In this document: in pieces, positions 1 to 62,732 of the stretch
Numbering within the stretch: the stretch's first letter is position 1
Layout of the letters: each line of letters starts with the position of its first letter
IMG/VR virus record: IMGVR_UViG_3300033069_001798
Span: 1 to 64,000 of that record
Length of the DNA: 64,000 nucleotides
Direction: 5' to 3' (one strand)
Source of the DNA: a virus
Taxonomy: Duplodnaviria; Heunggongvirae; Uroviricota; Caudoviricetes
Translations under genes and position numbers: made by a program
The notes under the pieces: model-generated
Databases searched by the model: none
What the model was told of the DNA's origin: nothing
The model's input: only the letters and a program-made list of their open reading frames with translations

Positions 1-1
1 T

Positions 2-459: not shown

Positions 460-471
460 TGAGGTGTCGCT

Positions 472-848: not shown

Positions 849-888
849 CGCTGTGCACTGGTGCCACAAAATGGGTTACAATTGTTAG

Positions 889-2250: not shown

Positions 2251-2414
2251 ATGATGTTTCCTTTGACGTCGGCGATCTGCTTATTTTTCTCGGCGATGCA
2301 GAGTCCTGGAAGGACCAAGCTGGTTCGCGATGGTACGGAATCGTCCTGCGGGCTAGAGACACAAAAGTGCTAGTGTTCCCTGATTACTGCTTTGAACCAT
2401 GTCACCCCAACTGA
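2247..2414 (+). CDS. small GDLV-family protein
   Basis: 'MNDVSFDVGDLLIF…VLVFPDY'; 55 aa. Confidence 0.45.
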   Translation: MNDVSFDVGDLLIFLGDAESWKDQAGSRWYGIVLRARDTKVLVFPDYCFEPCHPN

Positions 2415-2635
2415 TACAACATCGCTGGACGCAGATCGGTTACCTCGTGGAATTTGAGCACGCTTACGAGATTCCAGCTCGCGACGTGTTCTGGCTTCCT
2501 GGTGATGTTGTCAGACCGGCGTGGGATGACTACGATCGCAAACTAAACGATTTTGCTCCGGAGCCAGCTGGCATCGTTATCAACTATGATCGAACGACAA
2601 AAGACATGCTGATCCTGTGGAGCGATGCACCGTGA
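2399..2635 (+). CDS. small family-related protein (divergent)
   Basis: Occupies an array slot. Internal 'WLPGDVV'. Overlaps the previous gene by 16 nt. Confidence 0.4.
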   Translation: MSPQLIQHRWTQIGYLVEFEHAYEIPARDVFWLPGDVVRPAWDDYDRKLNDFAPEPAGIVINYDRTTKDMLILWSDAP

Positions 2636-2862
2636 AGAGCGTGAAAAAGCTGAAGATAGGATCATTGTTGATCCCAACCTCTTCATTTCATTGGTTGTAC
2701 TCAACAAATCCGATTCACTCGCAGGTGATCACAGCTCACGGTCGACCACTGTACGTGTACCTCGGAAACATGGTTGACCGTGATGATGCTCCGGCTCTGT
2801 ACATTCTTACGCCAGATTGTGAAATCTACTTGACCGATGCTGAGAACGTTGAAGAGCTATGA
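2632..2862 (+). CDS. small GDLV-family protein (GTG start; alternative ATG at 2617)
   Basis: 'KIGSLLIP…YILTPDCEIYL…ENVEEL'; GTGA overlap. Confidence 0.45.
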   Translation: MKSVKKLKIGSLLIPTSSFHWLYSTNPIHSQVITAHGRPLYVYLGNMVDRDDAPALYILTPDCEIYLTDAENVEEL

Positions 2863-3107
2863 AATCAGGTGACCTTGTCGCATCGCGGTTCGCAGCAACA
2901 ACGTGCTTCGAAGTGCACCCTGAATTCGGTCTGCTGATCAGAACGATAGCTAGCGATGAAATTTGCACGTTCATCTGCAAGCTCTCCCGTGATGACCAAA
3001 GAAGGGTGCATCCATCGTTGGGCACGTACACCGCTGCGACGATGATGATCATGCGTGCTGATTGCAGCCTCGTGTACGTCGACAAAAGGATGCTATCAAA
3101 GCTATGA
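2859..3107 (+). CDS. small GDLV-family protein
   Basis: 'MKSGDLVAS…SLVYVD'. Confidence 0.5.
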   Translation: MKSGDLVASRFAATTCFEVHPEFGLLIRTIASDEICTFICKLSRDDQRRVHPSLGTYTAATMMIMRADCSLVYVDKRMLSKL

Positions 3108-3352
3108 TCGATCTAGATGATCTACTTCTTGGAACGTTGCTTCGACCGAAAGCTGACGCTTCTGGATCTCGTCACTGGATTTATAAGTGGAACGTTTCTA
3201 AGACGTACGAAGCGTTTTATGAAGCACCAGGACCGGTGTATGCGTACATGGGCATGATTCCCGTTGAGGGTGAAACAACTGCTTATGCTTTGAGCTCTAA
3301 GGACGGTGCTTTGTACGAAATATGCACGAGAGAATTTGAGGTCATCCCGTGA
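3104..3352 (+). CDS. small family protein
   Basis: Internal ATG forms an ATGA overlap. 'LLLGTLLRP…SSKDGALYEI…EFEVIP'. Confidence 0.45.
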   Translation: MIDLDDLLLGTLLRPKADASGSRHWIYKWNVSKTYEAFYEAPGPVYAYMGMIPVEGETTAYALSSKDGALYEICTREFEVIP

Positions 3353-3594
3353 AGTCAGGCGATCTTGTGATACCAGGGCACGAAGCGATATACTGCTTCG
3401 CTGACAGAGAGCCGGCTGGTTACACGACGATCTTGTGGAAAGAAATTCTTATTTACGTCAGCGATCTTACACAAGATGACTGCGATTACGAGTACTTCTC
3501 GCGGTGGACGAAGTCACCAGAAAACATTGCACGCGTCATCAGAGAGTCTGGGAGGATTGTCTACATCGACAGAAGGGACGTTGTGACCCTATGA
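3349..3594 (+). CDS. small GDLV-family protein (GTG start)
   Basis: '(M)KSGDLVIP…VIRESGRIVYI…DVVTL'; GAGGT Shine-Dalgarno. Confidence 0.5.
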   Translation: MKSGDLVIPGHEAIYCFADREPAGYTTILWKEILIYVSDLTQDDCDYEYFSRWTKSPENIARVIRESGRIVYIDRRDVVTL

Positions 3595-3866
3595 AAGTGC
3601 GCGCGCCCACAGATTGCCATGGCACTAAAATCAGCTGCGGATCGATCGTAGTACCGTCTGACGCTGCAGTCAACATGCCGCCGTTGACACGGCACCTTAA
3701 GGGCTCTTGGGTCACATCATTCCGCTATGGAATACCAAACACCAAGAAAGAATTTCTTCTTTGCATTGGGCATGAAGCGTACATCGAAGGAGGCTCTGTG
3801 CTTCACCTCTTTTCACCAACGATAGGATTGATCAACTTGTACGCGCATGAGGTGGCGCTGTGTTGA
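3591..3866 (+). CDS. small family protein (divergent)
   Basis: ATGA overlap; 'CGSIVVPS…HLFSPTIGLINLY'. Confidence 0.4.
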   Translation: MKVRAPTDCHGTKISCGSIVVPSDAAVNMPPLTRHLKGSWVTSFRYGIPNTKKEFLLCIGHEAYIEGGSVLHLFSPTIGLINLYAHEVALC

Positions 3867-4123
3867 CGGGCGACTTGCTGCAGCCGACAGATTACGTCAT
3901 ACCCTGCTTCTTTGGTGCTGGCGCTAATTGGAAGTTGCACCCAGAACAAGGCGTCATCCTAAACAGTCAGCTGCTAGTGTTCATCTGCAACGTTGGTGAC
4001 AAAGAAGAAGAGTTGATGCACTATTGGTTCAACAAGTCTTCGAAGTACATCCGAGTCATGAAATCGTCTGGTGAACTGTGCACCGTCGACGCAAGGAACG
4101 TAGCGAAACTTTTACACCTATGA
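3860..4123 (+). CDS. small GDLV-family protein (GTG start)
   Basis: '(M)LTGDLLQP…VMKSSGELCTV'. Confidence 0.5.
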   Translation: MLTGDLLQPTDYVIPCFFGAGANWKLHPEQGVILNSQLLVFICNVGDKEEELMHYWFNKSSKYIRVMKSSGELCTVDARNVAKLLHL

Positions 4124-4135
4124 AGTAGGCCTACT

Positions 4136-4402
4136 GTGATAAAACCTGGAACGTTGCTCAAGGCTAGCAAGAGATGCTGGACGCTGTACTACGGCGAACG
4201 AGGCACGCCGCAGTGGGCATCCTACGACCATGATATTGAGAAGGGTGAATACCTCATCTTCATCTCAGAGATTCCCATATCGCCGGAGTTGGCGCCGTTG
4301 ATCGGCCTCAAGAGCACGTACCTGCTGCTCCGGGCTCGAGGGTGCTCTCTAGTTTATTTGGGGGTATTGAGATGGAAACCATCGGATGATTTGTGCGATT
4401 AA
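4136..4402 (+). CDS. small GDLV-family protein (GTG start)
   Basis: '(M)IKPGTLLKA…SLVYLG'. Confidence 0.45.
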   Translation: MIKPGTLLKASKRCWTLYYGERGTPQWASYDHDIEKGEYLIFISEIPISPELAPLIGLKSTYLLLRARGCSLVYLGVLRWKPSDDLCD

Positions 4403-4462
4403 ATCGTGAGGCCCACGAGCGCTGTGCACAGCTCGGGCCCAGAGTGGTAAGATGTTAAGAGG

Positions 4463-4702
4463 ATGCGTCATCTTCCTGGCATGCTTGTTAAACCGCACAG
4501 CGAAGCTCGTGGCCTTAAATTGCTGGATGATTGTTGGTGTCGTCAGTGGAACGATTCATCTATGCTGGTGGATGAATCTGAGTTTCTAGCCGTCGTTTCC
4601 TCGTACGACATGAGTCGTCGAAACATCGTGATGTGCCTGAGGCGCGACATGTCGCTCGTCTTCCTTGACGATTGGGACGTTAACGAGGTGACTTGTGGTT
4701 AA
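4463..4702 (+). CDS. small GDLV-family protein
   Basis: 'MRHLPGMLVKP…SLVFLD'. Confidence 0.5.
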   Translation: MRHLPGMLVKPHSEARGLKLLDDCWCRQWNDSSMLVDESEFLAVVSSYDMSRRNIVMCLRRDMSLVFLDDWDVNEVTCG

Positions 4703-4943
4703 CGCTTCATGCATCGGCGCGCTCGTGACAATCATCAACACTGCGCATGATTATCCATTTCTTAAGCGAGCAGGATTTGGGGGACTTGATGGTCCTCGAG
4801 CACGGGTCAGAGACGTATTCATGATCATTGGATACGAACAAGTGACAATTTCTGACGGTGGAAAGCGTGGACGTTGTTGGTTGCTGAGAACCAGAGATCA
4901 GCACGTCGGTGAATTGTGGATCGATGAGGTCGTTGCGCTATGA
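4695..4943 (+). CDS. small family protein
   Basis: Occupies an array slot; 'WLLRTRDQHVGELWI…VVAL'. Confidence 0.4.
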   Translation: MVNASCIGALVTIINTAHDYPFLKRAGFGGLDGPRARVRDVFMIIGYEQVTISDGGKRGRCWLLRTRDQHVGELWIDEVVAL

Positions 4944-5155
4944 GCAATTTCGCGCCTGGTGATATCGTCAGGTTGAAGAGGAGCATGGACGGTGCCTCGT
5001 TCCTCGTCGTTGAAAATGGCGCCGTGCTGCCTTCGTGGAGCTCACGAGTGACGTCGCTCAAAGACATCTACTTTGTCATCGGTGTGAAGGAGATGAATTT
5101 GGCACAAAGCACATCGTGTATGTCATGTGCTCTGGTGATGCGCACGTGGGCATGA
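4940..5155 (+). CDS. small GDLV-family protein
   Basis: 'MSNFAPGDIVRL'; ATGA overlap. Confidence 0.5.
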   Translation: MSNFAPGDIVRLKRSMDGASFLVVENGAVLPSWSSRVTSLKDIYFVIGVKEMNLAQSTSCMSCALVMRTWA

Positions 5156-5180
5156 TGTGGGAAGGCGAGCTTCAAGGGGC

Positions 5181-5444
5181 ATGAAAACGGGTGACCTGCT
5201 GCGACCAAAGGCTTCCATGATCGGACAAAACTACTTGACGCTGTCGGGCGACGGGCTTGAAGTGTCTAACGATCGCAAGATCCAAGGATCAGATCGATTC
5301 TTGCTGATTGGTTACGCACCAGAAACGGCGGACTACAACAGGATTATCTGCGTCATGATAGTTGACACTGGAAACCTTGGCCTCTTGTTCGACGCCGACG
5401 TCGATGCATGGGTGTTAGCATGTTCAACACTGGATCCTTGTTGA
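5181..5444 (+). CDS. small GDLV-family protein
   Basis: 'MKTGDLLRP…VMIVDTGNLGLLF'; AAGGGG Shine-Dalgarno. The track start at 5157 is a GTG extension. Confidence 0.5.
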   Translation: MKTGDLLRPKASMIGQNYLTLSGDGLEVSNDRKIQGSDRFLLIGYAPETADYNRIICVMIVDTGNLGLLFDADVDAWVLACSTLDPC

Positions 5445-5647
5445 AGCCAAAATCTACTGCGGGAGCTCATCACTACTTGACCCATCGCTCTGTCCGGACA
5501 ACCAGGCGCGTTAGAGCTCGAGATCGCTACGTGCTCTTGGGTTACGTAACAGTTGGGAAGTCTTCTGATCCGATCTACTTGTGCGCTCTGCTGCACGTTT
5601 CGGGAGCAGTGCTCTACATCAATGTGGAGAAAGTTGAGCTGGCATGA
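5420..5647 (+). CDS. small GDLV-family protein
   Basis: 'MFNTGSLLKP…ALLHVSGAVLYI…KVELA'. Confidence 0.45.
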   Translation: MFNTGSLLKPKSTAGAHHYLTHRSVRTTRRVRARDRYVLLGYVTVGKSSDPIYLCALLHVSGAVLYINVEKVELA

Positions 5648-5916
5648 AGATTGGATCTTACGTCCGAGCAGTCGAAGACTCTTGGGGTTACGCTTACATG
5701 AAACCTGACGAGAGATATCCCGGTGACTGGCGAGGAAATCACAAGATGGTAACAGTATCTAGCAACCATCGTTACTTGATCGTAGGAGCTCTAGAATCTG
5801 GTCTTGTTGATGACAACAAGGTGTACGTGCTGTTGATGATCCCCCAGTGCATCATCACTTACCTTACTTCAAAAGAAGTCGTAGAAGTGTTATGTTCAGG
5901 ATTGGTGATCTGGTGA
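5644..5916 (+). CDS. small family protein
   Basis: 'MKIGSYVRA'; ATGA overlap. Confidence 0.45.
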   Translation: MKIGSYVRAVEDSWGYAYMKPDERYPGDWRGNHKMVTVSSNHRYLIVGALESGLVDDNKVYVLLMIPQCIITYLTSKEVVEVLCSGLVIW

Positions 5917-6134
5917 CGCCAAGAAGAGATGCTCTAGGCAGAGCGTTTATCAATCCCGATGGATCTACAGCAACCCCCGAAAACTGGGATTACACTAAGC
6001 GCGGAGACTTGTACGTTTACATCGGGCAGATGACGATCGTTCACGGTGGAATGTACAAGAATATTTCCACATTGTGGAGCATCGAAGATCTTAAAATTGT
6101 TCACCTGTACGAGAACGAGCTCCAGCATGTTTAA
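5892..6134 (+). CDS. small GDLV-family protein
   Basis: 'MFRIGDLVTP…LYENELQHV'. Confidence 0.5.
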   Translation: MFRIGDLVTPRRDALGRAFINPDGSTATPENWDYTKRGDLYVYIGQMTIVHGGMYKNISTLWSIEDLKIVHLYENELQHV

Positions 6135-6369
6135 CATTGGCGATCTTGTGAAGCTAGCACCGACGCTTAGCAAGCGTTACTACATCTTGGAGTCGTCATT
6201 GGGCGCCAAGCACGCGATCTACGATTCAAAGTCAAGCCCCGCTGAGCACGATGAAATGTACGTAGTAGTTGGCTTTAAGATTAGTTACGATTGGAACGCT
6301 TGCGCTCTCATGCGCGTAAACGATGGTAAAGTTGTCTGGCTGCACAAAAGCGAGGTGACGCATGTATGA
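6127..6369 (+). CDS. small GDLV-family protein
   Basis: 'MFNIGDLVKL…MRVNDGKVVWL'. Confidence 0.5.
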   Translation: MFNIGDLVKLAPTLSKRYYILESSLGAKHAIYDSKSSPAEHDEMYVVVGFKISYDWNACALMRVNDGKVVWLHKSEVTHV

Positions 6370-6592
6370 TAGTGGTGACATTTGCATACCCACCAAAACA
6401 GGGCTTGGGAATGTTAACTACTTGTCTGCTCGCAACGTAGTAACCGGTCGAAAAGCTGCCTACAGTGATATTCTTCTGTTCGTTTGTTGGCATCCTGAAG
6501 GTTCTTCCTACAGTGATCGACGCATAGCAAAGTTCATTCTCCCAGATGGATCAATCGTGATGCTTTATGATGGAGAGTTTCATAAGATATGA
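6362..6592 (+). CDS. small GDLV-family protein
   Basis: 'MYDSGDICIP…FILPDGSIVMLYDGEFHKI'. Confidence 0.55.
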   Translation: MYDSGDICIPTKTGLGNVNYLSARNVVTGRKAAYSDILLFVCWHPEGSSYSDRRIAKFILPDGSIVMLYDGEFHKI

Positions 6593-6822
6593 GCATAAAA
6601 GTTGGTGATCTATGCTCTCCGATTGGAAACGGTGCAGTAAGCTACATCGATCCGGTTGGAAATTTTCCAACTAATGTTTGGGCGCAAAAGAACGACGTGC
6701 TGTTGTTCATCGGCTGGGTTAACATTGTCACCCTCTCTACGCAAAGTACGTCGATGGCTGTATTTGTGCTGCCTGATGGAACGATAGCATCGCTGTACAA
6801 CAGAGAATTTAAGTTGCTATGA
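6589..6822 (+). CDS. small GDLV-family protein
   Basis: 'MSIKVGDLCSP…FVLPDGTIASLYNREFKLL'. Clear paralog of the 6362 gene. Confidence 0.6.
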   Translation: MSIKVGDLCSPIGNGAVSYIDPVGNFPTNVWAQKNDVLLFIGWVNIVTLSTQSTSMAVFVLPDGTIASLYNREFKLL

Positions 6823-7115
6823 CGATCAAAGTCGGTGATCTGTGCACCCCCTCGGGAGACGTCATCCAGTTCAGGTACATGAACATCACGCCTCGCGAAA
6901 ACGGAACGAACGTTTGGACTGTCAACATGAATCTTCCGCGGGTTAACCCAAACGTCACGTTCTTGTGCATCGGATTCTTGCAGGCGGCGGCGCGCTTCCA
7001 GCAGTCGCGGAGGATTGACGTTTCAACTATGGAGATGTCCACAATTGCTATTTTGCTGCACGCACAGCTCAAAACTGTCACATTTCTCCTTGCTGAAGAG
7101 ATCGAGGCGCTGTGA
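6819..7115 (+). CDS. small GDLV-family protein
   Basis: 'MTIKVGDLCTP'; 98 aa; ATGA overlap. Confidence 0.5.
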   Translation: MTIKVGDLCTPSGDVIQFRYMNITPRENGTNVWTVNMNLPRVNPNVTFLCIGFLQAAARFQQSRRIDVSTMEMSTIAILLHAQLKTVTFLLAEEIEAL

Positions 7116-7336
7116 CGGATGGCATCCGAGCCGGTGCTCTTTGCTCACCAACACCAGAGCTTGAAGGTGAAATTTACTGCAACGCTCATTTTGCTATGCA
7201 CAAGCGCATCGCCATATTCCGTCATCACAAGCTAGTGTTCTTGTACAGCGCTGATCGAGAATACCCAAGGCTGTGCTACTTCATCTTGGGTGATCAGATC
7301 GTTGGACTGATCGAGGGTGAGTTCAAAGAACTATGA
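7112..7336 (+). CDS. small GDLV-family protein (GTG start)
   Basis: 'IRAGALCSP…LIEGEFKEL'. Confidence 0.5.
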   Translation: MTDGIRAGALCSPTPELEGEIYCNAHFAMHKRIAIFRHHKLVFLYSADREYPRLCYFILGDQIVGLIEGEFKEL

Positions 7337-7587
7337 TGAACCATTCAAGCGTCAAAATTCTGTCTGGTGATCTCTGCCGCCCAACGAGAGCATGTGCCAA
7401 CAGCAATTTGCAGTACATCAACTTTGCTAGCGCAACGGCATCTGAACGTGTTGTCAAGAGAGATGACGTTCTTGTGTTCATCTGCTGGACAGCATGGCGC
7501 GTGAACGAGCCAGCAAATTACGCTCAGTTCATCACCTCCGACGGAGAAATACTGTCGCTGAGAGCTGGGGAGTTCGAGGTTGTATGA
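7333..7587 (+). CDS. small GDLV-family protein
   Basis: 'LSGDLCRP…FITSDGEILSLRAGEFEVV'. Confidence 0.55.
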   Translation: MMNHSSVKILSGDLCRPTRACANSNLQYINFASATASERVVKRDDVLVFICWTAWRVNEPANYAQFITSDGEILSLRAGEFEVV

Positions 7588-7838
7588 AGACATTTCGGGC
7601 AGGCGATCTTGTTGTCACTGACTTCGCACCGGGCAGTGCCATGTACGTTGTAGTCGATGAAGGATATGGTTACAATCACTTCACAGCGAGTGGAGATGAA
7701 ATTTCAAGTTCTGACGTATCATCTGGTTACGTGTTCTTGGGTTATCATCCTGACAATCTCAGCGTTGTAATGCTGCTCAACAACAGCGACGGAAGGATCG
7801 TTCAACTTTACGATGACGAGATTGAGCAGCTAAGATGA
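7584..7838 (+). CDS. small GDLV-family protein
   Basis: 'MKTFRAGDLVVT…NNSDGRIVQLYDDEIEQL'. Internal ATG of track ORF 7494-7838. Confidence 0.5.
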   Translation: MKTFRAGDLVVTDFAPGSAMYVVVDEGYGYNHFTASGDEISSSDVSSGYVFLGYHPDNLSVVMLLNNSDGRIVQLYDDEIEQLR

Positions 7839-8080
7839 AACCCGTTGTTAAGCCGGGAGCCATTGTTAAGCCCGTTGACGACATCTTCTTTTTTGATGAC
7901 ATAGAGGCACAGGTAGTAGGACGTGAGCTCACGAACCGCGCTGGTTTGTGCGCTGTCGTATATTCACCGAACTGCAATCATGAAGGATGGTGTCCGGAAC
8001 TTCACGTGCTGGGCTTGCTCACTGCTGACGGGCGAATCAAGTTCGTATTTTCATCTCAGGTAAAGATCATTGTTGACTAA
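7835..8080 (+). CDS. small GDLV-family protein
   Basis: 'VKPGAIVKP…GLLTADGRIKFVF'. Confidence 0.5.
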   Translation: MKPVVKPGAIVKPVDDIFFFDDIEAQVVGRELTNRAGLCAVVYSPNCNHEGWCPELHVLGLLTADGRIKFVFSSQVKIIVD

Positions 8081-8087
8081 AGGAACC

Positions 8088-8294
8088 ATGGGTAAAAATC
8101 GATTCAAGACTGGTGATCTTGTCGACATGCAGCATTACCTAAAAGTGTTCAGCAAGGAAGAATACGCCGGTGTGTTCATAGTGGTTGGTTTCTTGGCTGA
8201 CACGCACGTTAAATTGATGATGAGTCATGGTCGAATCATGATGAGCCATGTAGACTACGTAACCCTAGTGCAAAGCGCTGGAGCGGTGGTGTAA
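8088..8294 (+). CDS. small GDLV-family protein
   Basis: 'MGKNRFKTGDLVDM'; AAAGGAA Shine-Dalgarno. Confidence 0.5.
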   Translation: MGKNRFKTGDLVDMQHYLKVFSKEEYAGVFIVVGFLADTHVKLMMSHGRIMMSHVDYVTLVQSAGAVV

Positions 8295-8324
8295 GATGAC
8301 TAAAAACTGTCAGCTGGTGTTACG

Positions 8325-8642
8325 TTGCACATTGAACCTAAAGATGAAGGTATTTGGACTTTTAAGTGGCATGAAGCAAGTCAACAAATGTATTATCTTG
8401 ATGGCATTAAGCGCGGTACACATGTCGTTGTGGGATCAAGCATGATAGAGCCTTGCACGGGTGATATCTTCTGGCCGCTGCTTTCACCATTGGGAAATAT
8501 AATTTGGGTTAAGGCCGACCATTGCCTCGTGGTGCATGTTCAGCGACGGAAGCGATCAGAGCGGGCGATCGCGATCATCGGTCTTCTCACTACGCACGGT
8601 ATAATGTACTTGTATTCCGATCAGATGACGGTCATCGTATGA
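8325..8642 (+). CDS. small family protein (longer, divergent; TTG start per track)
   Basis: 'LLSPLGNIIWV' plus a second C-terminal-like half. Start uncertain. Confidence 0.35.
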   Translation: MHIEPKDEGIWTFKWHEASQQMYYLDGIKRGTHVVVGSSMIEPCTGDIFWPLLSPLGNIIWVKADHCLVVHVQRRKRSERAIAIIGLLTTHGIMYLYSDQMTVIV

Positions 8643-8866
8643 ACGTAGGAGATCTTGTGTGCATGTCACAACATGCTTGGGTCTATGACTTTAATGCCAT
8701 AGAAAATCAGATGAAACTACGGTTTAACGACCCAGCTAGCGGCGTTCACATCGTTGTAGGAACTGCAACGTCGCTGAATCGGGCAAGAATTAAATTCTTG
8801 CCCGTGATGTCGCCAATTGGTGAAATTTACTGGGTCATGACTGCAGATGTTCAGAAAGTAAGCTGA
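8639..8866 (+). CDS. small GDLV-family protein
   Basis: 'MNVGDLVCM…VMSPIGEIYWV'; ATGA overlap. Confidence 0.5.
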   Translation: MNVGDLVCMSQHAWVYDFNAIENQMKLRFNDPASGVHIVVGTATSLNRARIKFLPVMSPIGEIYWVMTADVQKVS

Positions 8867-23161: not shown

Positions 23162-23572
23162 TCACTTCTTGCTAGACGGGTATTTCTTCTTGAAGACGAG
23201 CAGCGTGCCACGAAGCAAGATCAACGCATCATCATGAAGCACTCGAGCCGCTCCTTCTTTGAATGCTGCTATGATCGTGCTCAAGAACATGTAGATTCCA
23301 ACGGTGCAGATGATTCCAACCATTGACATCTTCACCAGCAGGCCCACTAGAACGATGACAACAGAGATGAACATCGTTTCAAGCTTCGCGCTGTAAACTT
23401 CCTTGCTGACGGTCACTGAGTTGCCGTACATATCAGCAAGGAACTGAATCGTGCTGAATGACATCTTCTCGCCGTGCGAGACAGACTCCCAGTCAATGTC
23501 CTCGATCTTTACGTTCTCTTCTTTGTTCAACTCTTCATTGATCATCTTTTTCACTATCCTTGGTGTCTTCAA
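23162..23572 (-). CDS. membrane protein (2-3 TM helices)
   Basis: Hydrophobic segments 'FISVVIVLVGLLV', 'MVGIICTVGIYMFLSTIIAAF'. Lies immediately downstream of GroEL. Confidence 0.45.
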   Translation of the reverse strand: MKTPRIVKKMINEELNKEENVKIEDIDWESVSHGEKMSFSTIQFLADMYGNSVTVSKEVYSAKLETMFISVVIVLVGLLVKMSMVGIICTVGIYMFLSTIIAAFKEGAARVLHDDALILLRGTLLVFKKKYPSSKK

Positions 23573-25160
23573 CTATCACTGCGCCGATAGACAAAAATGT
23601 GATTGCTACTGAAACTGCGTTCTTCAAAGCCGTCCTGGAAACTTTCACTGGATCGATGATGCCATGAGCAAACATGTCAACTTCTCTGTCGCTTGCAGCG
23701 TCGTAACCACGAAACTGGATGTCTGACTTGATCATTCCACTTCGTAGATTGTTGATGACGACTTCATGTGACTTTCCGGCATTCGAAACGATCGTCTGCA
23801 AGGGTGCTAGGATTGATGTCATGACAAGCTTTGCACCAACATCATCTTGAGGCACGTCAACCATCCACGTGGCATTGAAGAATGCAGTTCCGCCGCCAGC
23901 TACGATGCCCTCGGCGACCGCTGCTCGCGTTGCGTTCAGAGCATCTTCGATGCGATACTTCTTCTCAATCATCTCAAGCTCAGTTGAGCCTCCGACCTTG
24001 ATGACAGCAACGCCAGAAGCAAGCCGCGCGATGCGCACCTTCAACTTTGTCACTTCATCAGTTGTTAGCGTCACGTCTTCGAGCTGCGTCCTAAGATTTG
24101 CAACGTGAGCGTCAACAGCGGGCCGAGATGCGCCAGCTCCGACCAACGTTGTCGACTTAGCATCAACGACGACCTTCTTGACAGTACCAAGATCGTTGAG
24201 CTCAAGCTTCTCGATCTTCAATCCAGCAGCTGGCGACACAACTGTCGTACCAGTAAGAACTGCGATATCGTGAAGCAGTTCATCCTTGTGTTTTCCGTAA
24301 CCCGGTGCTTTGACAGCAACGACTGCTAGGTTCGCATTGACGCGGTTGACGACCAGTCCTTGCATCGCTTCACCATCAACATCTTCGGCAATGATGAGCA
24401 GCTTTGACTGGGATCTTACGACTTTCTCAAGCAGAGGAATCAGCTCGCTCAGCGATGATAGTTTCTTGTCAGTGACAAGAACGCGAGCATCATTGTAAGT
24501 GACATTCATTCGTTCTTGGTTGGTGACGAAGTAAGGGCTCAAGTAACCACGCTCGAACTGCATACCTTCGACAGTTTCAAGCGTTGTCTCCATTCCTTTT
24601 GCATCCTCAACGGTGATGATGCCGTCAGATCCGACCTTCTCCATCGCATCAGCGATGAGGTTGCCGATGCGACCGTCGCCGTTCGCAGAGATCGTGCCGA
24701 CCTGAGCGATCTCTTCTTTGGTCGTCAGCTTCTTAGCAGATTTCACAAGGTATTCATCGACTAGCACTCGAGCTCGTTCCATCCCTTCGCACAGCTCTTT
24801 TGCTTCAAACCCTGCTTCAAGGTACTTCAACCCACCCTTGACTAGAGCGTAAGTCAACACCGTTGCTGTCGTTGTGCCATCACCAGCAACCTCGTTCGTC
24901 TGTGATGCTGCCTCCCTGATCAGATCTGCTCCCATCCTTTCAACTGGATCTTTGGGCCTGACTGACTTTGAAACCGTAACGCCGTCCTTGGTGACAACTG
25001 GCGGTCCATCTTTCTTCTGGATGACGACTGTCTTTCCTTTCGGTCCCAGCGTGCATGCAACGCTTTCAGCTGTGCACTCTATTCCTCGATAGAGTCTACG
25101 CCTCGCGTCGTTCTTGAAGAAAACTTTCGTAATGTTGTGTGTCTCGACGTCATTGATCAT
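23535..25160 (-). CDS. groEL: chaperonin GroEL (Cpn60)
   Basis: 'CTLGPKGKTVVI…KDGVTV' and 'AGDGTTTATVL' are signature motifs. The protein is GroEL-like along its full length. Confidence 0.9.
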   Translation of the reverse strand: MINDVETHNITKVFFKNDARRRLYRGIECTAESVACTLGPKGKTVVIQKKDGPPVVTKDGVTVSKSVRPKDPVERMGADLIREAASQTNEVAGDGTTTATVLTYALVKGGLKYLEAGFEAKELCEGMERARVLVDEYLVKSAKKLTTKEEIAQVGTISANGDGRIGNLIADAMEKVGSDGIITVEDAKGMETTLETVEGMQFERGYLSPYFVTNQERMNVTYNDARVLVTDKKLSSLSELIPLLEKVVRSQSKLLIIAEDVDGEAMQGLVVNRVNANLAVVAVKAPGYGKHKDELLHDIAVLTGTTVVSPAAGLKIEKLELNDLGTVKKVVVDAKSTTLVGAGASRPAVDAHVANLRTQLEDVTLTTDEVTKLKVRIARLASGVAVIKVGGSTELEMIEKKYRIEDALNATRAAVAEGIVAGGGTAFFNATWMVDVPQDDVGAKLVMTSILAPLQTIVSNAGKSHEVVINNLRSGMIKSDIQFRGYDAASDREVDMFAHGIIDPVKVSRTALKNAVSVAITFLSIGAVIVEDTKDSEKDDQ

Positions 25161-57352: not shown

Positions 57353-57771
57353 AATTCGCCCTTGGGAGCTTCTGCTTGCGGGATGTTAGGATTGCCAAGC
57401 TTCGCATCAGTATAGCGTCGTCCAAAATACAACGCAAGGATAGGAGCAAAATAGCTGGCACATGCAGCAACATCGAATGGACGGACATGAATAGGACCAA
57501 GCGTCTCAAACATGGAGAGCACGTAAGCCAACGTTGTAACCCAAAATGATACGAAGACAAGAGTGACTGTGACGCTTCCATGTCCAGCTGCGTCTTTCAC
57601 CCAATACCACTTAGACTGAACCTCAGTTGGATCAGCGGCTTTCTTCTCTTCTTCCATGTCGACAACCTCTGGTCCTAAATAGGCCGTACAGATCATTTGG
57701 TCGCATGCGATAGAGCAAAAACGGTGAGCACGGTGAAAACAGCGCCGCCAGCAAAACCACCAGCAACCCAC
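57331..57771 (-). CDS. membrane protein
   Basis: Multiple hydrophobic segments. Confidence 0.45.
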   Translation of the reverse strand: MGCWWFCWRRCFHRAHRFCSIACDQMICTAYLGPEVVDMEEEKKAADPTEVQSKWYWVKDAAGHGSVTVTLVFVSFWVTTLAYVLSMFETLGPIHVRPFDVAACASYFAPILALYFGRRYTDAKLGNPNIPQAEAPKGELWHKRSL

Positions 57772-59182: not shown

Positions 59183-59741
59183 GAACTAAGACTGCTCCTC
59201 CTCCGCCGACGCCTCCATCACCTGCTCGATCAGCTGGAGGTGCAGTGAATTCATCTTCCATTTCATCCCTTGACTTACCGATCTCCATGCCATGCTCGTT
59301 GCGAAGCTGCTCTTTGAATGAATCAGCAACTGACTCATCGTAATTCTTCGACAAGAAGTTTGACGCCCTACGCAAGATCGTATTTCTAACTTCTAGCAAG
59401 GAGTCGTAGTTGTCTATCAACCTGACAACGCCGTTGACAAAAGAGCCCACGTCAATGTCTTCAACAGTAAGCTTCTTTGGTTCATCGCTAGAATCATCAC
59501 CCTTGTCGTCATCTTCACCAGCTTCAACGATTCGACGCACAGTCATTCGCCAATCGCGACCCTCGGTCTTTGCGGACTTTGCTTCTTTTTCATAGTCATT
59601 CAAGTAACGATCGACCTGAGAGTCTAGTGAATCTTCTCCCGGCTCTTCTGTTGGTGGCGTTGGCGCTTCGCCTTCTTCTCTGAGAATCTCTTCTCTTAGA
59701 ACACGCCGAAGATCACCCAAGCGAACCTTAAAAGTCTTCAT
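59172..59741 (-). CDS. hypothetical protein with the shared N-terminal motif (VRLGDLRRVLREEILREEGEAP)
   Basis: Read directly from the sequence. Confidence 0.55.
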   Translation of the reverse strand: MKTFKVRLGDLRRVLREEILREEGEAPTPPTEEPGEDSLDSQVDRYLNDYEKEAKSAKTEGRDWRMTVRRIVEAGEDDDKGDDSSDEPKKLTVEDIDVGSFVNGVVRLIDNYDSLLEVRNTILRRASNFLSKNYDESVADSFKEQLRNEHGMEIGKSRDEMEDEFTAPPADRAGDGGVGGGGAVLVHEI

Positions 59742-60454
59742 GACTTCACCGCCACGCCGATTGCTTCAGCTCTCTTAAAACGATCTTCGCAAACTTCCCA
59801 ATTGATCTCTCTCATCTGAGCGATCAAGTAGCTCTTCTTATCGGTCAAGTAGTCTCTAGCGTATGCATGCTCCCACATGTCGACAACGATCACTGGGTAG
59901 AAGCCTAGTGGGATATCTCCACTGTGGTGGCTGATTGGAACGTTGATGTACTTCTTCAAGAAAGTGTGGTACCCGCAAACAGCCCATCCATTTCCAGCAG
60001 CCATGGCACATGCGATGAAGTCACGTTGCCAATCTTCGAACGTTCCGAAGTCTCTCTGCAGCTTGATGTAAGCGATTGAATCCATCACGATCTCAGAATG
60101 AGGATCGTAGCAGTTCGCAAAGTACAGCTCATGAAGCCACACAGCATTGAGGTTGTACGCTTCATCAAGCTTCAATGACCTGAAGTCACTGTGCTTTGAA
60201 TTTGAAGCGCCCCTGTCAGCAGTGTCAAGCTGCGCAGAAACATTGTTCAACGTGTCAACGTACTCACGGTAAAGAGTTGTGTGCGCTTCTTTGGTCTTCT
60301 GCGAAACCATCTCAGAGACTTGCTTGAACGGCTTCGGTTCTGCAACGTAGGACTCGTTGATCTTTCCAACTTCTTTCACTGCAGCGGAACGCGATAGCGC
60401 ATCTCTGATCGTCTTATCAAGGTCTAGACCTTCCAGTATGTTCTTTTTGCTCAT
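59738..60454 (-). CDS. sodA: Fe/Mn superoxide dismutase
   Basis: 'HTTLYREYV', 'NAVWLHELYF' and 'DMWEHAYARDY' match 'H..HH..YV', 'N…nH..fw' and 'DvWEHAYYldY'. Confidence 0.8.
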   Translation of the reverse strand: MSKKNILEGLDLDKTIRDALSRSAAVKEVGKINESYVAEPKPFKQVSEMVSQKTKEAHTTLYREYVDTLNNVSAQLDTADRGASNSKHSDFRSLKLDEAYNLNAVWLHELYFANCYDPHSEIVMDSIAYIKLQRDFGTFEDWQRDFIACAMAAGNGWAVCGYHTFLKKYINVPISHHSGDIPLGFYPVIVVDMWEHAYARDYLTDKKSYLIAQMREINWEVCEDRFKRAEAIGVAVKS

Positions 60455-60752
60455 GATCTTTTCCTTGTAAGCTCAGCTCGTAATTCTTTTCAAGTTCTTC
60501 TGCATCAATCAGGAATTTTTCACCCTCTGGCGTCCTGAGTATGCAATCGTTAGGACCGACTGAATCCACTGTGTAGCGAATTCCACTGTTCTTGTGAAGA
60601 ACTTTCAGCTCTGGAGCGATGATCATCTTCTCTTCTCCTTTGCCGATCTTTGCAGTCATCGCAACGTCGACGGTCTCCGTTAGAGACGCAACACGTGAGT
60701 CCCACTCTTCACGGAAGACTTCTATGATGTCCTTATCAGTAAGTGCTCTCAT
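60417..60752 (-). CDS. hypothetical protein
   Basis: ORF. Confidence 0.45.
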   Translation of the reverse strand: MRALTDKDIIEVFREEWDSRVASLTETVDVAMTAKIGKGEEKMIIAPELKVLHKNSGIRYTVDSVGPNDCILRTPEGEKFLIDAEELEKNYELSLQGKDHEQKEHTGRSRP

Positions 60753-60879
60753 GTTCTCGATGTAAGTATTGCGTCCGATGTTCTCATGACTTCAATACCA
60801 ACTGATTGCAGCAAGACAAGACCTGACGAATCCCTGTACTGGATGTCATACACGACCCTAGAGATTCCAGCGTTGATGA

Positions 60880-62199
60880 TCATCTTGATTCATTTGAGAA
60901 ATCTACTAGATCCTGATAAGAATCAACTTGAATTCCAGCTTCACGAAGCAATTTTACACCAGTTGAATTTCTGTACTTTTGCAAGTACACGATTCTTCCA
61001 ACTCGACTGTTAATTAGACTTTTTGCACACATTATGCATGGAGATGTAGTTACGTAAACTGTGGAATTTTCAAGAGATTCAGATGCGTGAGAAATGGCAT
61101 TAATTTCTGCATGAATGCAACCACAAGAACCTGGTGTTAGGGAATCACAGCCATTAAGCCCTCCAGAATTTGATCCATTGTAGCCCAGGCATAGAACGCG
61201 TTCATTATGTTGATCAACAAAAACTGCGCCAACTCGCAATCTGCAACATGTTGATCTTTTTGCAAATGCAACTGCAACATGCATCCAAATAGAATCATAT
61301 GACGATCTACTGAATGTGCCTATGTCATTTTCATAGTATTCATGAATTTTTTCAATAGGTTCAAGATCGCGTTCATAAATCACGCGAAATTCAATGTTCT
61401 TGTTGGAATAAAAAGATCTAGCGGCTTCGATCTTTTTATTCGTATGTTCATTAACGTAGCCCTTAATCTCTTCAACGACCACGATATTAGAGTCATAATT
61501 GATGAAGAGATCAGGATTGTAATAGTGTGCATTACCTTCTTCATCAGACCAAAGAATTTTATCTTTACATCTACCCCATGCTAGAACTGTATTGTCAAAA
61601 TCCAGTTCTTTGAATCTTCGTAGCTCATAGCTAGAATCGTAATGAACTGTTCCAGCCTTTGTTGACTTGTATCTTCCTTTAAGAAAGTTCTTGTTAAAAT
61701 TTTCTGGTTCGTAAGATCTTTTGTAACAATCACGAGAACAATAACGATCATAATGATGTTTCAGATTGCTTTTCACAAAGTTTGAACAATCTTTTCCACT
61801 GCATTGCACTACAATTTTATTTTGTGAATGAAATGCTAGATAACATTCTCTATCACAAAAACAATTTGCATGCGCAACAATTGTTGAACGATAACGAAAA
61901 TTTGTTTTGTTACACCAAGAGCAATTTACTTGAACATGCGTTATAGATTTTTGTTCAGCTTTGTTGTGCAAAGCGCTACATTTTCTTGAACAAAACTTTC
62001 TTCCATTGTCAGCATAACACTTCAAAACATTGAATGCAGAATTACATTGAACGCATTTAATGGTGACTCGTTTGCTTTTCTGGAAGCATGTTTTTGAACA
62101 GTAATCATTTTTTGACTTTTTTTTGCCATGACAAATAGGACACAAATCTATTTCAGATTGAATCATGTTAGCACTATGAAAGGATGACATCGCAAGCAA
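60880..62199 (-). CDS. fusion protein: 4x Cys-rich zinc-finger repeats, a PD-(D/E)xK nuclease-like segment and a dCMP deaminase domain
   Basis: C-terminal 'CIHAEINAI…TSPCIMCAKSLINSRVGRIVY' is a dCMP/cytidine deaminase HAE…PCxxC signature. The middle 'YNPDLFINYDSNIVVVEEIKGY' fits the PD…(D/E)xK pattern. The N-terminus has four repeats of 'CxxC…(Y/F)CSRxC'. The whole gene is AT-rich. Confidence 0.7.
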   Translation of the reverse strand: MLAMSSFHSANMIQSEIDLCPICHGKKKSKNDYCSKTCFQKSKRVTIKCVQCNSAFNVLKCYADNGRKFCSRKCSALHNKAEQKSITHVQVNCSWCNKTNFRYRSTIVAHANCFCDRECYLAFHSQNKIVVQCSGKDCSNFVKSNLKHHYDRYCSRDCYKRSYEPENFNKNFLKGRYKSTKAGTVHYDSSYELRRFKELDFDNTVLAWGRCKDKILWSDEEGNAHYYNPDLFINYDSNIVVVEEIKGYVNEHTNKKIEAARSFYSNKNIEFRVIYERDLEPIEKIHEYYENDIGTFSRSSYDSIWMHVAVAFAKRSTCCRLRVGAVFVDQHNERVLCLGYNGSNSGGLNGCDSLTPGSCGCIHAEINAISHASESLENSTVYVTTSPCIMCAKSLINSRVGRIVYLQKYRNSTGVKLLREAGIQVDSYQDLVDFSNESR

Positions 62200-62732
62200 C
62201 GCGGCTCGTATAGCTCGTGCCCGCCAACTTCAAGCAACGTTTCATCTTCGCTCTTCTTGTACGTAAAATGAGCATCTTGCGAGCAGATCGTGCACACTGC
62301 TGAGCACTTCTCTATTGACGTTGCCCAAGGCAGCATCTTTGTCACTTCATCGAACGGCTTACCATTGAATGCAGTGTCAAGCGTTGACACTATGATGTTG
62401 TAGCCGTTCCTGTACAAGAACGTCAAAGCATCAGCAACGCCGTTAATCATGAAAGCTTCATCTACTGCGATGATGCTAATGTCGTTGTTCTGCTCTTCAA
62501 GAACTTTCGCAAGAATACCTTCTGCGTTATTGACAGTGACTGCATCGTGACGCCAACCACCGTGCGTCACGATCTGAGACGTAGAGTAGCGATCATCTAT
62601 CGCAGGCTTGAAAACTAGAGCGTTTCTCTTCTGGTACTTGCAACGCTCAAGCTCCATCAACAATCGAGATGATTTTGATGACCACATGGGTCCGACGTAC
62701 ATCACGAATGTTGGATTAGCTTGCTTGCTCAT
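62163..62732 (-). CDS. tdk: thymidine kinase
   Basis: 'VGPMWSSKSSRLL' is a P-loop. C-terminal zinc ligands 'CTICSQ…CLRCH'. Confidence 0.85.
   Translation of the reverse strand: MSKQANPTFVMYVGPMWSSKSSRLLMELERCKYQKRNALVFKPAIDDRYSTSQIVTHGGWRHDAVTVNNAEGILAKVLEEQNNDISIIAVDEAFMINGVADALTFLYRNGYNIIVSTLDTAFNGKPFDEVTKMLPWATSIEKCSAVCTICSQDAHFTYKKSEDETLLEVGGHELYEPRCLRCHPFIVLT

What the first reader, a model, noticed from the sequence alone, without database searches (positions are those of the whole stretch)
60880..62199. Triple-fusion protein: four Cys-rich zinc-finger repeats, a PD-(D/E)xK nuclease-like module and a dCMP deaminase, in an AT-rich gene
dCMP deaminases are normally about 150-190 aa. Here the deaminase domain (HAE…PCxxC) makes up only the C-terminal third. 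Four tandem 'CxxC-x(10-16)-(Y/F)CSRxC' repeats and a segment matching a restriction-endonuclease-like 'PD…EEIK' core precede it.

The whole gene is compositionally AT-shifted relative to its neighbours. That suggests horizontal acquisition, or insertion of a mobile nuclease module into the deaminase gene.
Basis: seen in the sequence. Interest (0 to 1): 0.58.

Follow-up and report, generated by a model that had tools for sequence, protein, structure and literature searches.

The report
Mobile nuclease–dCMP deaminase fusion replacing phage cd
A foreign, AT-rich gene that joins a zinc-finger DNA-cutting enzyme to its own dCMP deaminase has overwritten most of this giant phage's resident deaminase gene, and it looks like a selfish "homing" element that carries a working spare copy of the gene it destroys.

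Summary
One ORF, most likely 60880-62166 (-), 428 aa, encodes four C4 zinc fingers, a TnsA-like PD-(D/E)xK nuclease with an intact E/PD/ExK core, and a complete dCMP deaminase. Its GC is 0.35 against about 0.48 for its neighbours.

1. A 44-codon remnant of a second, normal-GC deaminase lies directly after the stop (60749-60883).
2. A 99%-identical relative (L001, and at least 24 more contigs read) carries an intact 145-aa cd gene at this spot. So 1275 foreign bases replaced 295 bases of the resident gene.
3. The fusion is not a one-off. More than 25 diverged zinc-finger/nuclease/deaminase fusions form one deaminase clade with a conserved linker. Several sit at the same TK-x-SOD locus in related jumbo phages. 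Free-standing relatives of the nuclease lie next to cd genes in other phages.

Deaminase motifs are intact in 25 of 25 clade members. The nuclease is mutated, decayed or lost in 4 of 25.

Best reading: a homing-endonuclease-like cassette that invades cd loci and brings its own deaminase. The replacement is shown; the nuclease-driven mechanism is inferred. No such fusion was found in GenBank phages, BFVD or the papers searched.

The parts
60880..62166 (-). Fusion ORF, 428 aa: zinc-finger array, TnsA-like nuclease and dCMP deaminase.
   Evidence: identical apart from one SNP in four assemblies
60888..62162 (-). Foreign-specific DNA, 1275 nt, GC 0.349. It replaces 295 nt (GC 0.495) of the resident cd gene seen intact in L001.
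62163..62166 (-). Left junction: ATGA, which is the TK stop (TGA) overlapping the start ATG. It is shared by the fusion allele and the plain cd allele.
60880..60887 (-). Right junction: 8-nt microhomology CAAGATGA. It is shared by the cassette end (…S R stop) and codons K100-M101 of the resident cd. It contains the fusion's TGA stop and the ATG of the remnant ORF.
61726..62142 (-). Four C4 zinc-finger repeats (aa 9-27, 38-63, 82-108, 122-147). Pattern: C-x2(4)-C-x9-17-[FYC]-C-[SD]-x2-C. This is the presumed DNA-recognition array.
   Evidence: AF2 pLDDT about 66-89 with a beta-hairpin plus helix per repeat; weak zf-FCS match for finger 2, E 0.12, below cut-off; finger number varies from 0 to 4 or more among fusions
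61327..61692 (-). TnsA-like PD-(D/E)xK nuclease domain (aa 159-280). Catalytic E181 at 61624-61626, P218-D219 at 61510-61515, E232-E233-I-K235 at 61462-61473.
61291..61341 (-). Conserved nuclease-deaminase linker (aa 276-292), motif Y-E-N-x2-G-x-F-x-R.
   Evidence: G283 and R287 invariant, Y278 and N280 at least 90%; dN = 0 between L014 and L016
60916..61311 (-). Complete dCMP deaminase domain (aa 286-417). H352-A-E354 at 61105-61113; P376-C377-x2-C380 at 61027-61041.
60749..60883 (-). Remnant of the resident cd gene: its last 44 codons, from M-I-I-N-A-G onwards, with normal GC. It lacks the HAE and PCxxC motifs.
   Evidence: phrog_174 dCMP deaminase positions 212-251, E 1.4e-7; own HMM positions 99-134, E 2e-11; colinear with the 3' end of the L001 cd
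62163..62732 (-). Thymidine kinase, the upstream neighbour. It supplies the left homology arm and is translationally coupled to the fusion.

Best explanation
What it is. The gene is one allele of a polymorphic locus in an uncultured jumbo phage (a contig of 313,755 bp).

Shown:
- A foreign, AT-rich ORF was acquired as a single unit.
- The ORF encodes zinc fingers, a TnsA-fold nuclease, a conserved linker and a dCMP deaminase.
- It replaced bases 5-299 of the resident cd gene. Its boundaries lie exactly at ATGA start/stop overlaps.
- The last 44 codons of the resident gene were left stranded.
- The resident plain cd allele is still the common one in the population.

Inferred from conservation:
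- Both enzymatic domains are active.
- The deaminase supplies the dCMP-to-dUMP step that the disrupted resident gene no longer can. It works next to TK and thymidylate synthase.

Inferred mechanism:
- The zinc-finger/nuclease part acts as a free-standing-type homing endonuclease.
- In a mixed infection it cuts the plain cd allele, within or near the 295 bases that its own allele lacks.
- The break is repaired from the fusion allele. TK serves as the left homology arm, and the cd 3' end with the downstream genes as the right arm. This copies the cassette in.
- Because the cassette carries a divergent and presumably uncuttable deaminase fused to the nuclease, invasion costs the phage nothing.
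- For the same reason, the nuclease cannot simply be deleted without risking the deaminase.
- The first entry from a distant AT-rich relative used microhomology (CAAGATGA) rather than homologous arms.
For: Replacement:
- L001 is about 99% identical on both sides and has an intact 145-aa cd where the window has the cassette. Junctions lie at ATGA and at CAAGATGA.
- The remnant is a bona fide cd C-terminus.
- The plain allele was found in 24 contigs read (44 index blocks), all with the order TK-cd145-ORF111-SOD. The fusion allele is on about 5 contigs.
- Foreign origin: GC3 0.25 against 0.44-0.59, and 41% identity to the resident cd.
- The four fusion alleles differ by one SNP, while the flanks vary by 1-5%.

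Nuclease family looks like a homing endonuclease family:
- E/PD/ExK is invariant.
- It has the TnsA fold.
- The profile finds 5874 representative clusters. Most are 130-500 aa, with the nuclease C-terminal behind interchangeable DNA-binding arrays: HTH repeats, zinc fingers, DUF7487, NUMOD-like motifs.
- Members form AT-rich islands.

Recurrent link to cd genes:
- P0004 lies immediately downstream of cd in L005, and a shortened relative does so in L023. L025 is a distant empty site.
- Homology between L005 and L023 breaks inside cd and resumes after the nuclease gene.
- The resident L001-type cd clusters with those L005 and L023 cds.

The fusion is a stable unit:
- More than 25 diverged fusions form one deaminase clade with a conserved linker.
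- They occupy the same TK-x-SOD locus in L007, L010, L012 and L019.
- They are more AT-rich than their flanks in GC-richer hosts.

Life-cycle asymmetry:
- Deaminase motifs are intact in 25 of 25 clade members.
- The nuclease is D219T in L019, decayed in L020, and absent in L022 and P0008.
- dN/dS for L014 against L016: zinc fingers 0.28, nuclease 0.10, deaminase 0.05.

The same phage species carries other polymorphic GIY-YIG endonuclease genes nearby.
Against: - No cleavage activity, target site or biased inheritance has been shown.
- The junctions are microhomologies rather than homologous arms. No co-conversion tract of donor sequence is visible: the nearest flank differences from L001 lie 170 nt and 115 nt from the junctions. 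The primary event therefore needs no endonuclease.
- The fusion allele is the minority allele. That is not what a strongly driving element would show, unless it is recent.
- The shuffling of flanking haplotypes in L004 is equally explained by ordinary phage recombination.
- Conservation of the fusion, with its invariant linker, over deep divergence could instead mean that the two domains cooperate biochemically.
- The same HTH/TnsA-like module also occurs inside polyvalent proteins. That suggests effector roles for some family members.
- No donor with a near-identical cassette was found. The next best protein is 52% identical.
Confidence: 0.55

Rival explanations
1. Cooperative bifunctional enzyme for nucleotide salvage. 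The zinc-finger nuclease breaks down host (dC-containing) DNA, and the tethered deaminase channels the released dCMP towards dUMP and dTMP. The gene reached this phage by ordinary recombination between related phages and is kept because it is a better cd.
For: - It sits in a thymidylate-synthesis cluster of TK, ThyA-like and cd genes.
- The fusion and its linker are conserved across more than 25 diverged members, and both catalytic sets are intact in 21 of 25.
- The nuclease is under purifying selection, dN/dS 0.10.
- The junctions need no endonuclease.
Against: - Four clade members kept the deaminase while the nuclease was mutated (L019), decayed (L020) or absent (L022, P0008). The reverse never occurs.
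- Arrays of interchangeable sequence-reading modules (zinc fingers, HTH, DUF7487) point to site-specific cutting, not bulk degradation.
- Free-standing relatives sit as AT-rich islands beside cd genes, present in some relatives and absent in others.
- The plain cd remains the majority allele.
Confidence: 0.2
2. DNA-targeted cytosine deaminase. The zinc fingers and the nuclease-fold domain deliver the deaminase to DNA, of the host or a competitor phage, to make C-to-U lesions. Alternatively the protein is an injected or early anti-host effector like the modules of polyvalent proteins.
For: - A DNA-binding array is fused to a deaminase-superfamily domain.
- The same HTH/TnsA-like module is embedded in polyvalent proteins with ART, SNF2 and LPD1 domains.
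Against: - It occupies, and replaces, the cd slot between TK and SOD in several phages.
- Nuclease-less members of the same clade are ordinary 144-aa deaminases.
- The nuclease catalytic residues are conserved. They have not degenerated into a mere binding module.
Confidence: 0.07
3. Artefact or dead gene: a chimeric assembly, or a recently broken locus in which neither the fusion nor the remnant is functional.
For: - The remnant ORF is clearly non-functional, because it lacks HAE and PCxxC.
- The source is metagenomic only.
Against: - The same uninterrupted ORF, with the same junctions, occurs in four independent assemblies with a single SNP.
- It belongs to a conserved family with all catalytic residues intact, and the family's coding sequence is under purifying selection.
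Confidence: 0.02

Closest known systems
Free-standing phage homing endonuclease genes and 'intronless homing' (T4 seg/mob genes such as SegF, SegG and mobE; from my own knowledge. See also PMC10055350, 'Nuclease genes occupy boundaries of genetic exchange between bacteriophages'.)
   Same: - It is an AT-rich endonuclease ORF with a modular DNA-binding part.
- It sits at a fixed site in or beside a conserved nucleotide-metabolism gene.
- It is present in some near-identical phages and absent in others.
- Neighbouring host-gene sequence is exchanged along with it.
   Different: - The nuclease fold is TnsA-like PD-(D/E)xK, not GIY-YIG or HNH.
- The endonuclease is not free-standing. It is translated as one polypeptide with a complete foreign copy of the gene it displaces.
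- That fusion is conserved over deep divergence.
- Cleavage and biased inheritance are untested.
Mitochondrial endonuclease ORFs fused in frame to a host gene, with duplication or replacement of the displaced gene end (Allomyces atp6 hybrid gene; LAGLIDADG ORFs in fungal rps3). From my own knowledge, not checked here.
   Same: A mobile endonuclease ORF arrives together with a foreign piece of the target gene. This creates a functional hybrid or replacement gene and leaves a pseudogene remnant of the native segment next to it.
   Different: - There only a terminal segment of the host gene travels, and the endonuclease is GIY-YIG or LAGLIDADG.
- Here an entire deaminase domain travels, fused C-terminally to a TnsA-fold nuclease, in a dsDNA phage.
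Tn7 TnsA endonuclease (PDB 1F1Z/1T0F; Pfam PF08722)
   Same: - It has the same catalytic fold and the same E…PD…(E/Q)xK arrangement.
   Different: - There is no TnsA C-terminal domain.
- No TnsB or TnsC partner is among the neighbouring genes identified (TK, SOD).
- There are N-terminal zinc fingers and a C-terminal deaminase.
- The context is a phage metabolic operon, not a transposon.
PD-(D/E)xK-superfamily homing endonucleases I-Ssp6803I and I-Bth0305I (EDxHD/Vsr-like); listed in PMC3424549
   Same: - They show that a restriction-fold nuclease can be used for homing.
   Different: - They belong to different subfamilies of the superfamily.
- They are intron-encoded.
- In the 2012 census (PMC3424549) the TnsA family is annotated only as a transposase.
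Phage dCMP deaminases (T4 cd, 1VQ2; cyanophage S-TIM5, 4P9C)
   Same: - The C-terminal 140 aa share their fold, the HAE and PCxxC zinc site, and their genomic role beside TK and thymidylate synthase.
   Different: - Those enzymes are stand-alone proteins of about 136-190 aa.
- None of 50,697 GenBank phage records, and no BFVD viral model, matches the fusion over more than its deaminase part or its nuclease part.
Inteins
   Same: Both are selfish nucleases embedded in frame in a host protein, so that loss of the element endangers the host gene.
   Different: - No Hint or splicing domain was detected.
- The nuclease is N-terminal, not internal, and nothing suggests that it is removed.

Membership tests
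dCMP deaminase (cd/ComEB type, Pfam PF00383) | Profile score above the curated cut-off | tested here: met
   81.3 bits against a cut-off of 25, aa 302-406 of the 439-aa ORF; phrog_174 dCMP deaminase E 6.5e-47
dCMP deaminase (cd/ComEB type, Pfam PF00383) | Zinc and catalytic motifs H-A-E and P-C-x2-C | tested here: met
   H352-A-E354 and P376-C377..C380, invariant in the fusion family
dCMP deaminase (cd/ComEB type, Pfam PF00383) | Fold closest to solved dCMP deaminases rather than to polynucleotide deaminases | tested here: met
dCMP deaminase (cd/ComEB type, Pfam PF00383) | Deamination of dCMP to dUMP | not testable with these tools
   Needs an enzyme assay. The context (TK, ThyA-like, replacement of the resident cd) is consistent.
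TnsA-like PD-(D/E)xK endonuclease domain (Pfam PF08722) | Profile score above the curated cut-off | tested here: inconclusive
   The window protein scores 24.5 bits against a cut-off of 26.5. Homologues P0003, P0004 and P0005 score 34.6-47.3 bits and pass, as do several fusions in precomputed Pfam.
TnsA-like PD-(D/E)xK endonuclease domain (Pfam PF08722) | Catalytic E … (P)D … (D/E)xK in the right order and invariant | tested here: met
   E181, P218-D219 and E233-I-K235 are invariant in A1 and A2 and aligned to the TnsA motifs.
TnsA-like PD-(D/E)xK endonuclease domain (Pfam PF08722) | Restriction-endonuclease-like fold closest to TnsA | tested here: met
Tn7-like transposase TnsA (as part of a transposon) | TnsA C-terminal domain, and adjacent tnsB/tnsC genes with transposon ends | tested here: not met
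   The C-terminus is a deaminase. Among the neighbours, TK and SOD have Pfam assignments, the 44-aa ORF is the cd remnant, and ORF111 has no significant match. Nothing TnsB/TnsC-like was found among the neighbours scanned. Transposon ends were not searched for.
Homing endonuclease gene (free-standing type) | Present or absent at one fixed site among otherwise near-identical genomes | tested here: met
   The window and L002-L004 carry it. L001 and L093-L100 lack it, with 95-99% identical flanks and identical junctions.
Homing endonuclease gene (free-standing type) | Insertion disrupts or removes the sequence that would be the target, so the carrier allele is immune | tested here: inconclusive
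   295 nt of the plain cd are missing from the carrier allele, but the target site is unknown.
Homing endonuclease gene (free-standing type) | Site-specific cleavage of the endonuclease-less allele | not testable with these tools
   Needs an in vitro cleavage assay on the L001-type cd.
Homing endonuclease gene (free-standing type) | Biased (super-Mendelian) transmission with co-conversion of flanks | tested here: inconclusive
   All four carrier alleles share one core haplotype from -450 to +280, with five private SNPs in TK. Beyond +280, L004 carries a different background. This fits homing but also ordinary recombination.
Homing endonuclease gene (free-standing type) | Invasion-decay cycle: degenerate or lost endonucleases in some lineages | tested here: met
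   L019 has D219T and no fingers. In L020 the catalytic residues are lost and the N-terminal half is missing. In L022 and P0008 the nuclease is absent. The deaminase is intact in all of them.
FCS/MYM-type zinc finger (Pfam PF06467) | Profile match above cut-off | tested here: not met
   Only finger 2 matches, E 0.12, 12.6 bits against a cut-off of 22.4. The C-x2-C…F-C-S-x2-C pattern resembles it, but membership is not established.
Intein | Hint/splicing domain flanking the nuclease | tested here: not met
   No Hint or intein family appeared in Pfam at E up to 0.1. The nuclease is N-terminal, not internal.

The most novel reading that the evidence does not exclude
TnsA-fold nucleases with swappable zinc-finger, HTH or DUF7487 arrays would be a large, unrecognised family of phage homing endonucleases; the profile finds thousands of metagenomic clusters. 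One branch of it would have evolved a 'self-complementing' strategy. In that branch the endonuclease is permanently fused to an immune, functional copy of its own target gene (dCMP deaminase). It can then overwrite cd genes in unrelated phages at no cost, and it is protected from deletion by the host's need for the deaminase.
Probability: 0.4. Interest if true: 0.75.

Novelty: new variant of a known kind. Interest (0 to 1): 0.62.

Why it matters
- If the nuclease drives the replacement, this adds a sixth structural class (TnsA-fold) to homing endonucleases.
- It would also show a new way for a selfish nuclease to persist: covalent fusion to a working copy of the gene it destroys. That is conceptually close to a gene drive with a built-in rescue copy.
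- The locus is unusually testable. The filled allele, the empty allele and the exact junctions are all in hand, both alleles coexist in nature, and the protein is small.
- The zinc-finger array evolves faster (dN/dS 0.28) than the catalytic domains. That could interest people who design programmable nucleases.
- For annotation, such proteins are currently labelled only 'dCMP deaminase'.

Tried and rejected
- Megablast of 6 kb around the gene against GenBank phages gave no match. The source phage is uncultured.
- TK-based search of viral contigs returned one locus, which turned out to be the informative empty site.
- The idea that a nuclease module was inserted into the resident cd is rejected. 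The fused deaminase is itself foreign.
- A co-conversion tract of donor sequence next to the junctions was not seen.
- A donor was looked for. No protein above 52% identity other than the same allele was found. Related syntenic phages are only 65-70% identical in DNA.
- Contexts of the free-standing hits P0016 and P0018, and of P0002, were uninformative. The first two are on short contigs, and none has a cd gene nearby.
- The idea that family members inside giant proteins are intein-borne is rejected. They are HTH/TnsA-like modules inside polyvalent proteins, with no Hint domain.
- A T4 gp4-like 'head completion nuclease' reading (phrog_218, E 5.6e-9; BFVD hits) reflects the same fold superfamily. 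The architecture and the metabolic context do not fit a head-completion role.
- The AFDB50 fold library was unavailable.
- Literature searches for nuclease-deaminase fusions or TnsA-like homing endonucleases found nothing relevant.
- The ORF-poor first 12 kb was first suspected to use a recoded stop codon. It is better explained as an array of small genes.
Full report
**1. What is in the sequence**

- The minus-strand ORF 60880..62199 is real. Its probable start is the ATG at 62166.
- That ATG overlaps the stop of the upstream thymidine kinase gene as ATGA. Gene callers in three other assemblies use it, giving 428 aa (P0001).
- The protein has four C4 zinc-finger repeats at aa 9-27, 38-63, 82-108 and 122-147.
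- A nuclease domain follows at aa 159-280, with E181, P218-D219 and E232-E233-I-K235.
- A short linker leads into a complete dCMP deaminase (aa 286-417) with H352-A-E354 and P376-C-x2-C380.

Deaminase evidence:
- Pfam scores it at 81 bits against a cut-off of 25.
- An AlphaFold2 model built on an alignment of 12 family members has mean pLDDT 81.8.

Nuclease evidence:
- Pfam Tn7_TnsA-like_N scores 24.5 bits, just under the 26.5-bit cut-off.
- Three homologues pass the cut-off.
- A profile of the domain finds TnsA as its best solved relative, aligned over the whole domain (E 1e-3).
- The PD-(D/E)xK call is therefore supported by profile and by structure.

Zinc fingers:
- They resemble the FCS/MYM pattern, but Pfam does not confirm membership. 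The best match is E 0.12.

**2. Composition**

- The foreign segment has GC 0.349, against a window mean of 0.490 (z = -4.4). It is the lowest 1275-nt window in the 64 kb.
- GC3 is 0.25, against 0.44-0.59 in the neighbours.
- The deaminase part (GC3 0.215) is at least as shifted as the nuclease part (0.267). Both parts are foreign.

**3. The key extra observation: a remnant and an empty site**

- Directly after the stop, again overlapping as ATGA, lies a 44-codon ORF (60749..60883). It has normal GC and is the C-terminus of another dCMP deaminase (phrog_174 positions 212-251, E 1.4e-7; own HMM positions 99-134, E 2e-11).
- A viral contig from another sample (L001) is about 99% identical on both sides. 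It carries an intact 145-aa cd gene in the place of the fusion.
- In the window, 1275 foreign bases (60888-62162) stand where L001 has 295 bases of cd.
- The left junction comes right after the shared TK-stop/start ATGA.
- The right junction lies in an 8-nt microhomology, CAAGATGA. In the resident gene this encodes K100-M101, just after the PCxxC motif. In the cassette it supplies the last codon and the stop.
- The truncated remnant gives the direction of the event: the plain cd came first and the fusion overwrote it.

**4. Population picture**

- The plain allele was found in 24 contigs read (44 index blocks), from many samples. All have the order TK-cd145-ORF111-SOD.
- The fusion allele is on about five contigs, including a 313,755-bp one.
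- The four fusion alleles differ by one SNP (D105G in the window), while the flanks of plain alleles differ by 1-5%.
- All carriers share one core haplotype, from at least -450 to +280 around the cassette.
- Beyond +280, L004 sits on a different background that resembles other plain alleles.
- This indicates a single recent acquisition followed by recombination into other backgrounds. It fits homing but does not prove it.

**5. The fusion is a family**

- A profile of the nuclease domain finds 5874 representative clusters (E at most 1e-3) among 1.84 billion proteins.
- Most are 130-500 aa, with the nuclease C-terminal behind variable DNA-binding arrays: HTH repeats, zinc fingers, DUF7487, NUMOD-like motifs.
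- Eleven of the top 150 also end in a dCMP deaminase. IMG/VR adds nine more loci, and a profile search of 5.8 billion proteins adds further clusters. All are metagenomic, and those that carry a name are labelled only 'dCMP deaminase'.
- In the alignment of 12 fusions (36-51% identical to the window protein), both catalytic sets and a linker motif (Y-E-N-x2-G-x3-R) are invariant or nearly so.
- In a neighbour-joining tree, all fusion deaminase domains form one clade. That clade also contains three nuclease-less or nuclease-dead members.
- A single ancient fusion is therefore likely.
- The resident L001 cd is only 41% identical and lies in a distant clade.

**6. Same locus in relatives, and the link to cd**

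- Related jumbo phages carry diverged fusions at the same TK-x-SOD position:
  - L007-L009: the genome itself is AT-rich (GC 0.37).
  - L010: flanks 0.48, gene 0.32, no remnant.
  - L012: flanks 0.58-0.61, gene 0.46-0.51.
  - L019.

- In a different phage group, the closest free-standing relative, P0004, has a zinc finger, NUMOD-like repeats and the nuclease. It forms an AT-rich island immediately downstream of a complete cd gene (L005).
- L023 has a shortened version at the same place.
- L005 and L023 are 88-90% identical in their flanks. Homology breaks inside cd and resumes after the nuclease gene.
- L025 is a distant empty site.
- Strikingly, the L001-type resident cd clusters with those L005 and L023 cds.

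**7. Selection and decay**

- Deaminase motifs are intact in 25 of 25 clade members.
- The nuclease is D219T and fingerless in L019, decayed in L020, and absent in L022 and P0008.
- For the one pair with unsaturated dS (L014 against L016), dN/dS is 0.28 for the fingers, 0.10 for the nuclease, 0 for the linker and 0.05 for the deaminase.
- The nuclease is functional where it is present but dispensable to the phage. The recognition array evolves fastest.
- This is the pattern expected of a homing endonuclease, less so of an obligate two-domain enzyme.

**8. Interpretation**

- Shown: horizontal acquisition of a whole nuclease-deaminase ORF that replaced most of the resident cd.
- Inferred from conservation: both domains are active, and the fused deaminase substitutes for the lost one.
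- Inferred mechanism (confidence about 0.5): the zinc-finger/TnsA-fold part is a homing-type endonuclease that cuts plain cd alleles. Repair from the carrier allele then copies the cassette. The fused, divergent deaminase makes invasion cost-free and ties the nuclease's fate to a needed gene.

Caveats:
- The primary junctions are microhomologies.
- No donor-derived co-conversion tract is seen.
- The carrier allele is rare.
- Some family members sit inside polyvalent proteins.

Rivals:
- A cooperative salvage enzyme, about 0.2.
- A DNA-directed deaminase or effector, about 0.07.
- An artefact, about 0.02.

**9. Comparison with what is known**

- The nuclease works like free-standing phage homing endonucleases.
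- The 'endonuclease plus foreign piece of the target gene, native remnant left behind' arrangement recalls mitochondrial cases (my own knowledge).
- It has the TnsA fold, but it is not a Tn7 TnsA: there is no C-terminal TnsA domain and no TnsB or TnsC among the neighbours identified.
- The 2012 census of the superfamily lists TnsA only as a transposase. It lists I-Ssp6803I and I-Bth0305I as the homing members (PMC3424549).
- None of 50,697 GenBank phage records covers at least 80% of the protein.
- The nuclease domain has only three weak hits there.
- No BFVD viral model spans both halves.
- Literature searches found no description.
- I rate it a new variant of a known kind.

**10. Verdict**

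- The real story is a captured-in-the-act gene replacement by a conserved nuclease-deaminase fusion that is probably a homing element.
- Interest: 0.62.

Noticed in passing
window 1-12018 (+ strand): This stretch has no ORF over about 170 aa. It holds about 45 head-to-tail small plus-strand ORFs (70-120 aa), many joined by 4-nt overlaps. Several are diverged paralogues of each other, for example 6362-6592, 6589-6822, 6819-7115 and 7333-7587 (23-39% identical). GC skew is opposite to the rest of the window. A stop-codon recoding idea was considered; the small-gene array explains the pattern better.
   Followed up: partly
L001 9982-10887 (+); corresponding window position about 57579-57604: The empty-site relative L001 carries an extra 826 nt here. 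The segment encodes a GIY-YIG-type endonuclease-like ORF with NUMOD3-like repeats. The window lacks it, so this is a second polymorphic endonuclease gene in the same phage species.
   Followed up: partly
L098 912-1586 (-), between the ThyA-like and HslV-like genes (window equivalent about 63310-63490): One plain-allele strain has a 224-aa SegE-like GIY-YIG ORF (Pfam E 8.6e-5) in place of the small ORF found in the window. This is a third polymorphic endonuclease gene near the nucleotide-metabolism cluster.
   Followed up: partly
L002/L003 545-1462 (-), about 4.5 kb beyond the right end of the window: A minus-strand DUF7487 protein lies here. Gene callers give 305 aa in L002 and 250 aa in L003. 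Its C-terminal motif (PIDFYV…IQVDGVYWHG) looks like a Vsr/DUF559-type nuclease. The DUF7487 DNA-binding module therefore appears combined with different nuclease folds: TnsA-like in P0006 and L007, another fold here.
   Followed up: partly
proteins P0025, P0034, P0054, P0080, P0107, P0128, P0129: The same HTH-array plus TnsA-like nuclease module is embedded in frame inside very large proteins of 874-1763 aa. Three of them also have polyvalent-protein domains (LPD1 in P0025; ART-PolyVal and KfrB in P0107; ART-PolyVal and an SNF2/DEAD helicase in P0129). No intein domain was detected.
   Followed up: partly
window 11986-14775: Two very long ORFs overlap on opposite strands: 841 aa on the minus strand and 913 aa on the plus strand. 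They lie in the GC-richest part of the window (0.56-0.57). The plus-strand one has no PHROG match.
   Followed up: no
window 23535-25160 (-), 59738-60454 (-), 62752-63309 (-): The phage encodes a GroEL-type chaperonin (phrog_5725, E 1.7e-145), an Fe/Mn superoxide-dismutase-like protein and an HslV-family peptidase-like protein. These are auxiliary genes typical of very large phages.
   Followed up: no
window 61852-61854 (codon 105 of the fusion, in zinc finger 3): This is the only difference among the four fusion alleles. The window has Asp (CFCDREC); the other three assemblies have Gly.
   Followed up: yes
L015 (IMGVR_UViG_3300033121_001921) and L001 (IMGVR_UViG_3300033121_002167): A different phage with about 30% GC carries a fusion of this family. 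It comes from the same sample as the plain-allele contig L001. Potential donors and recipients therefore coexist in one environment.
   Followed up: no
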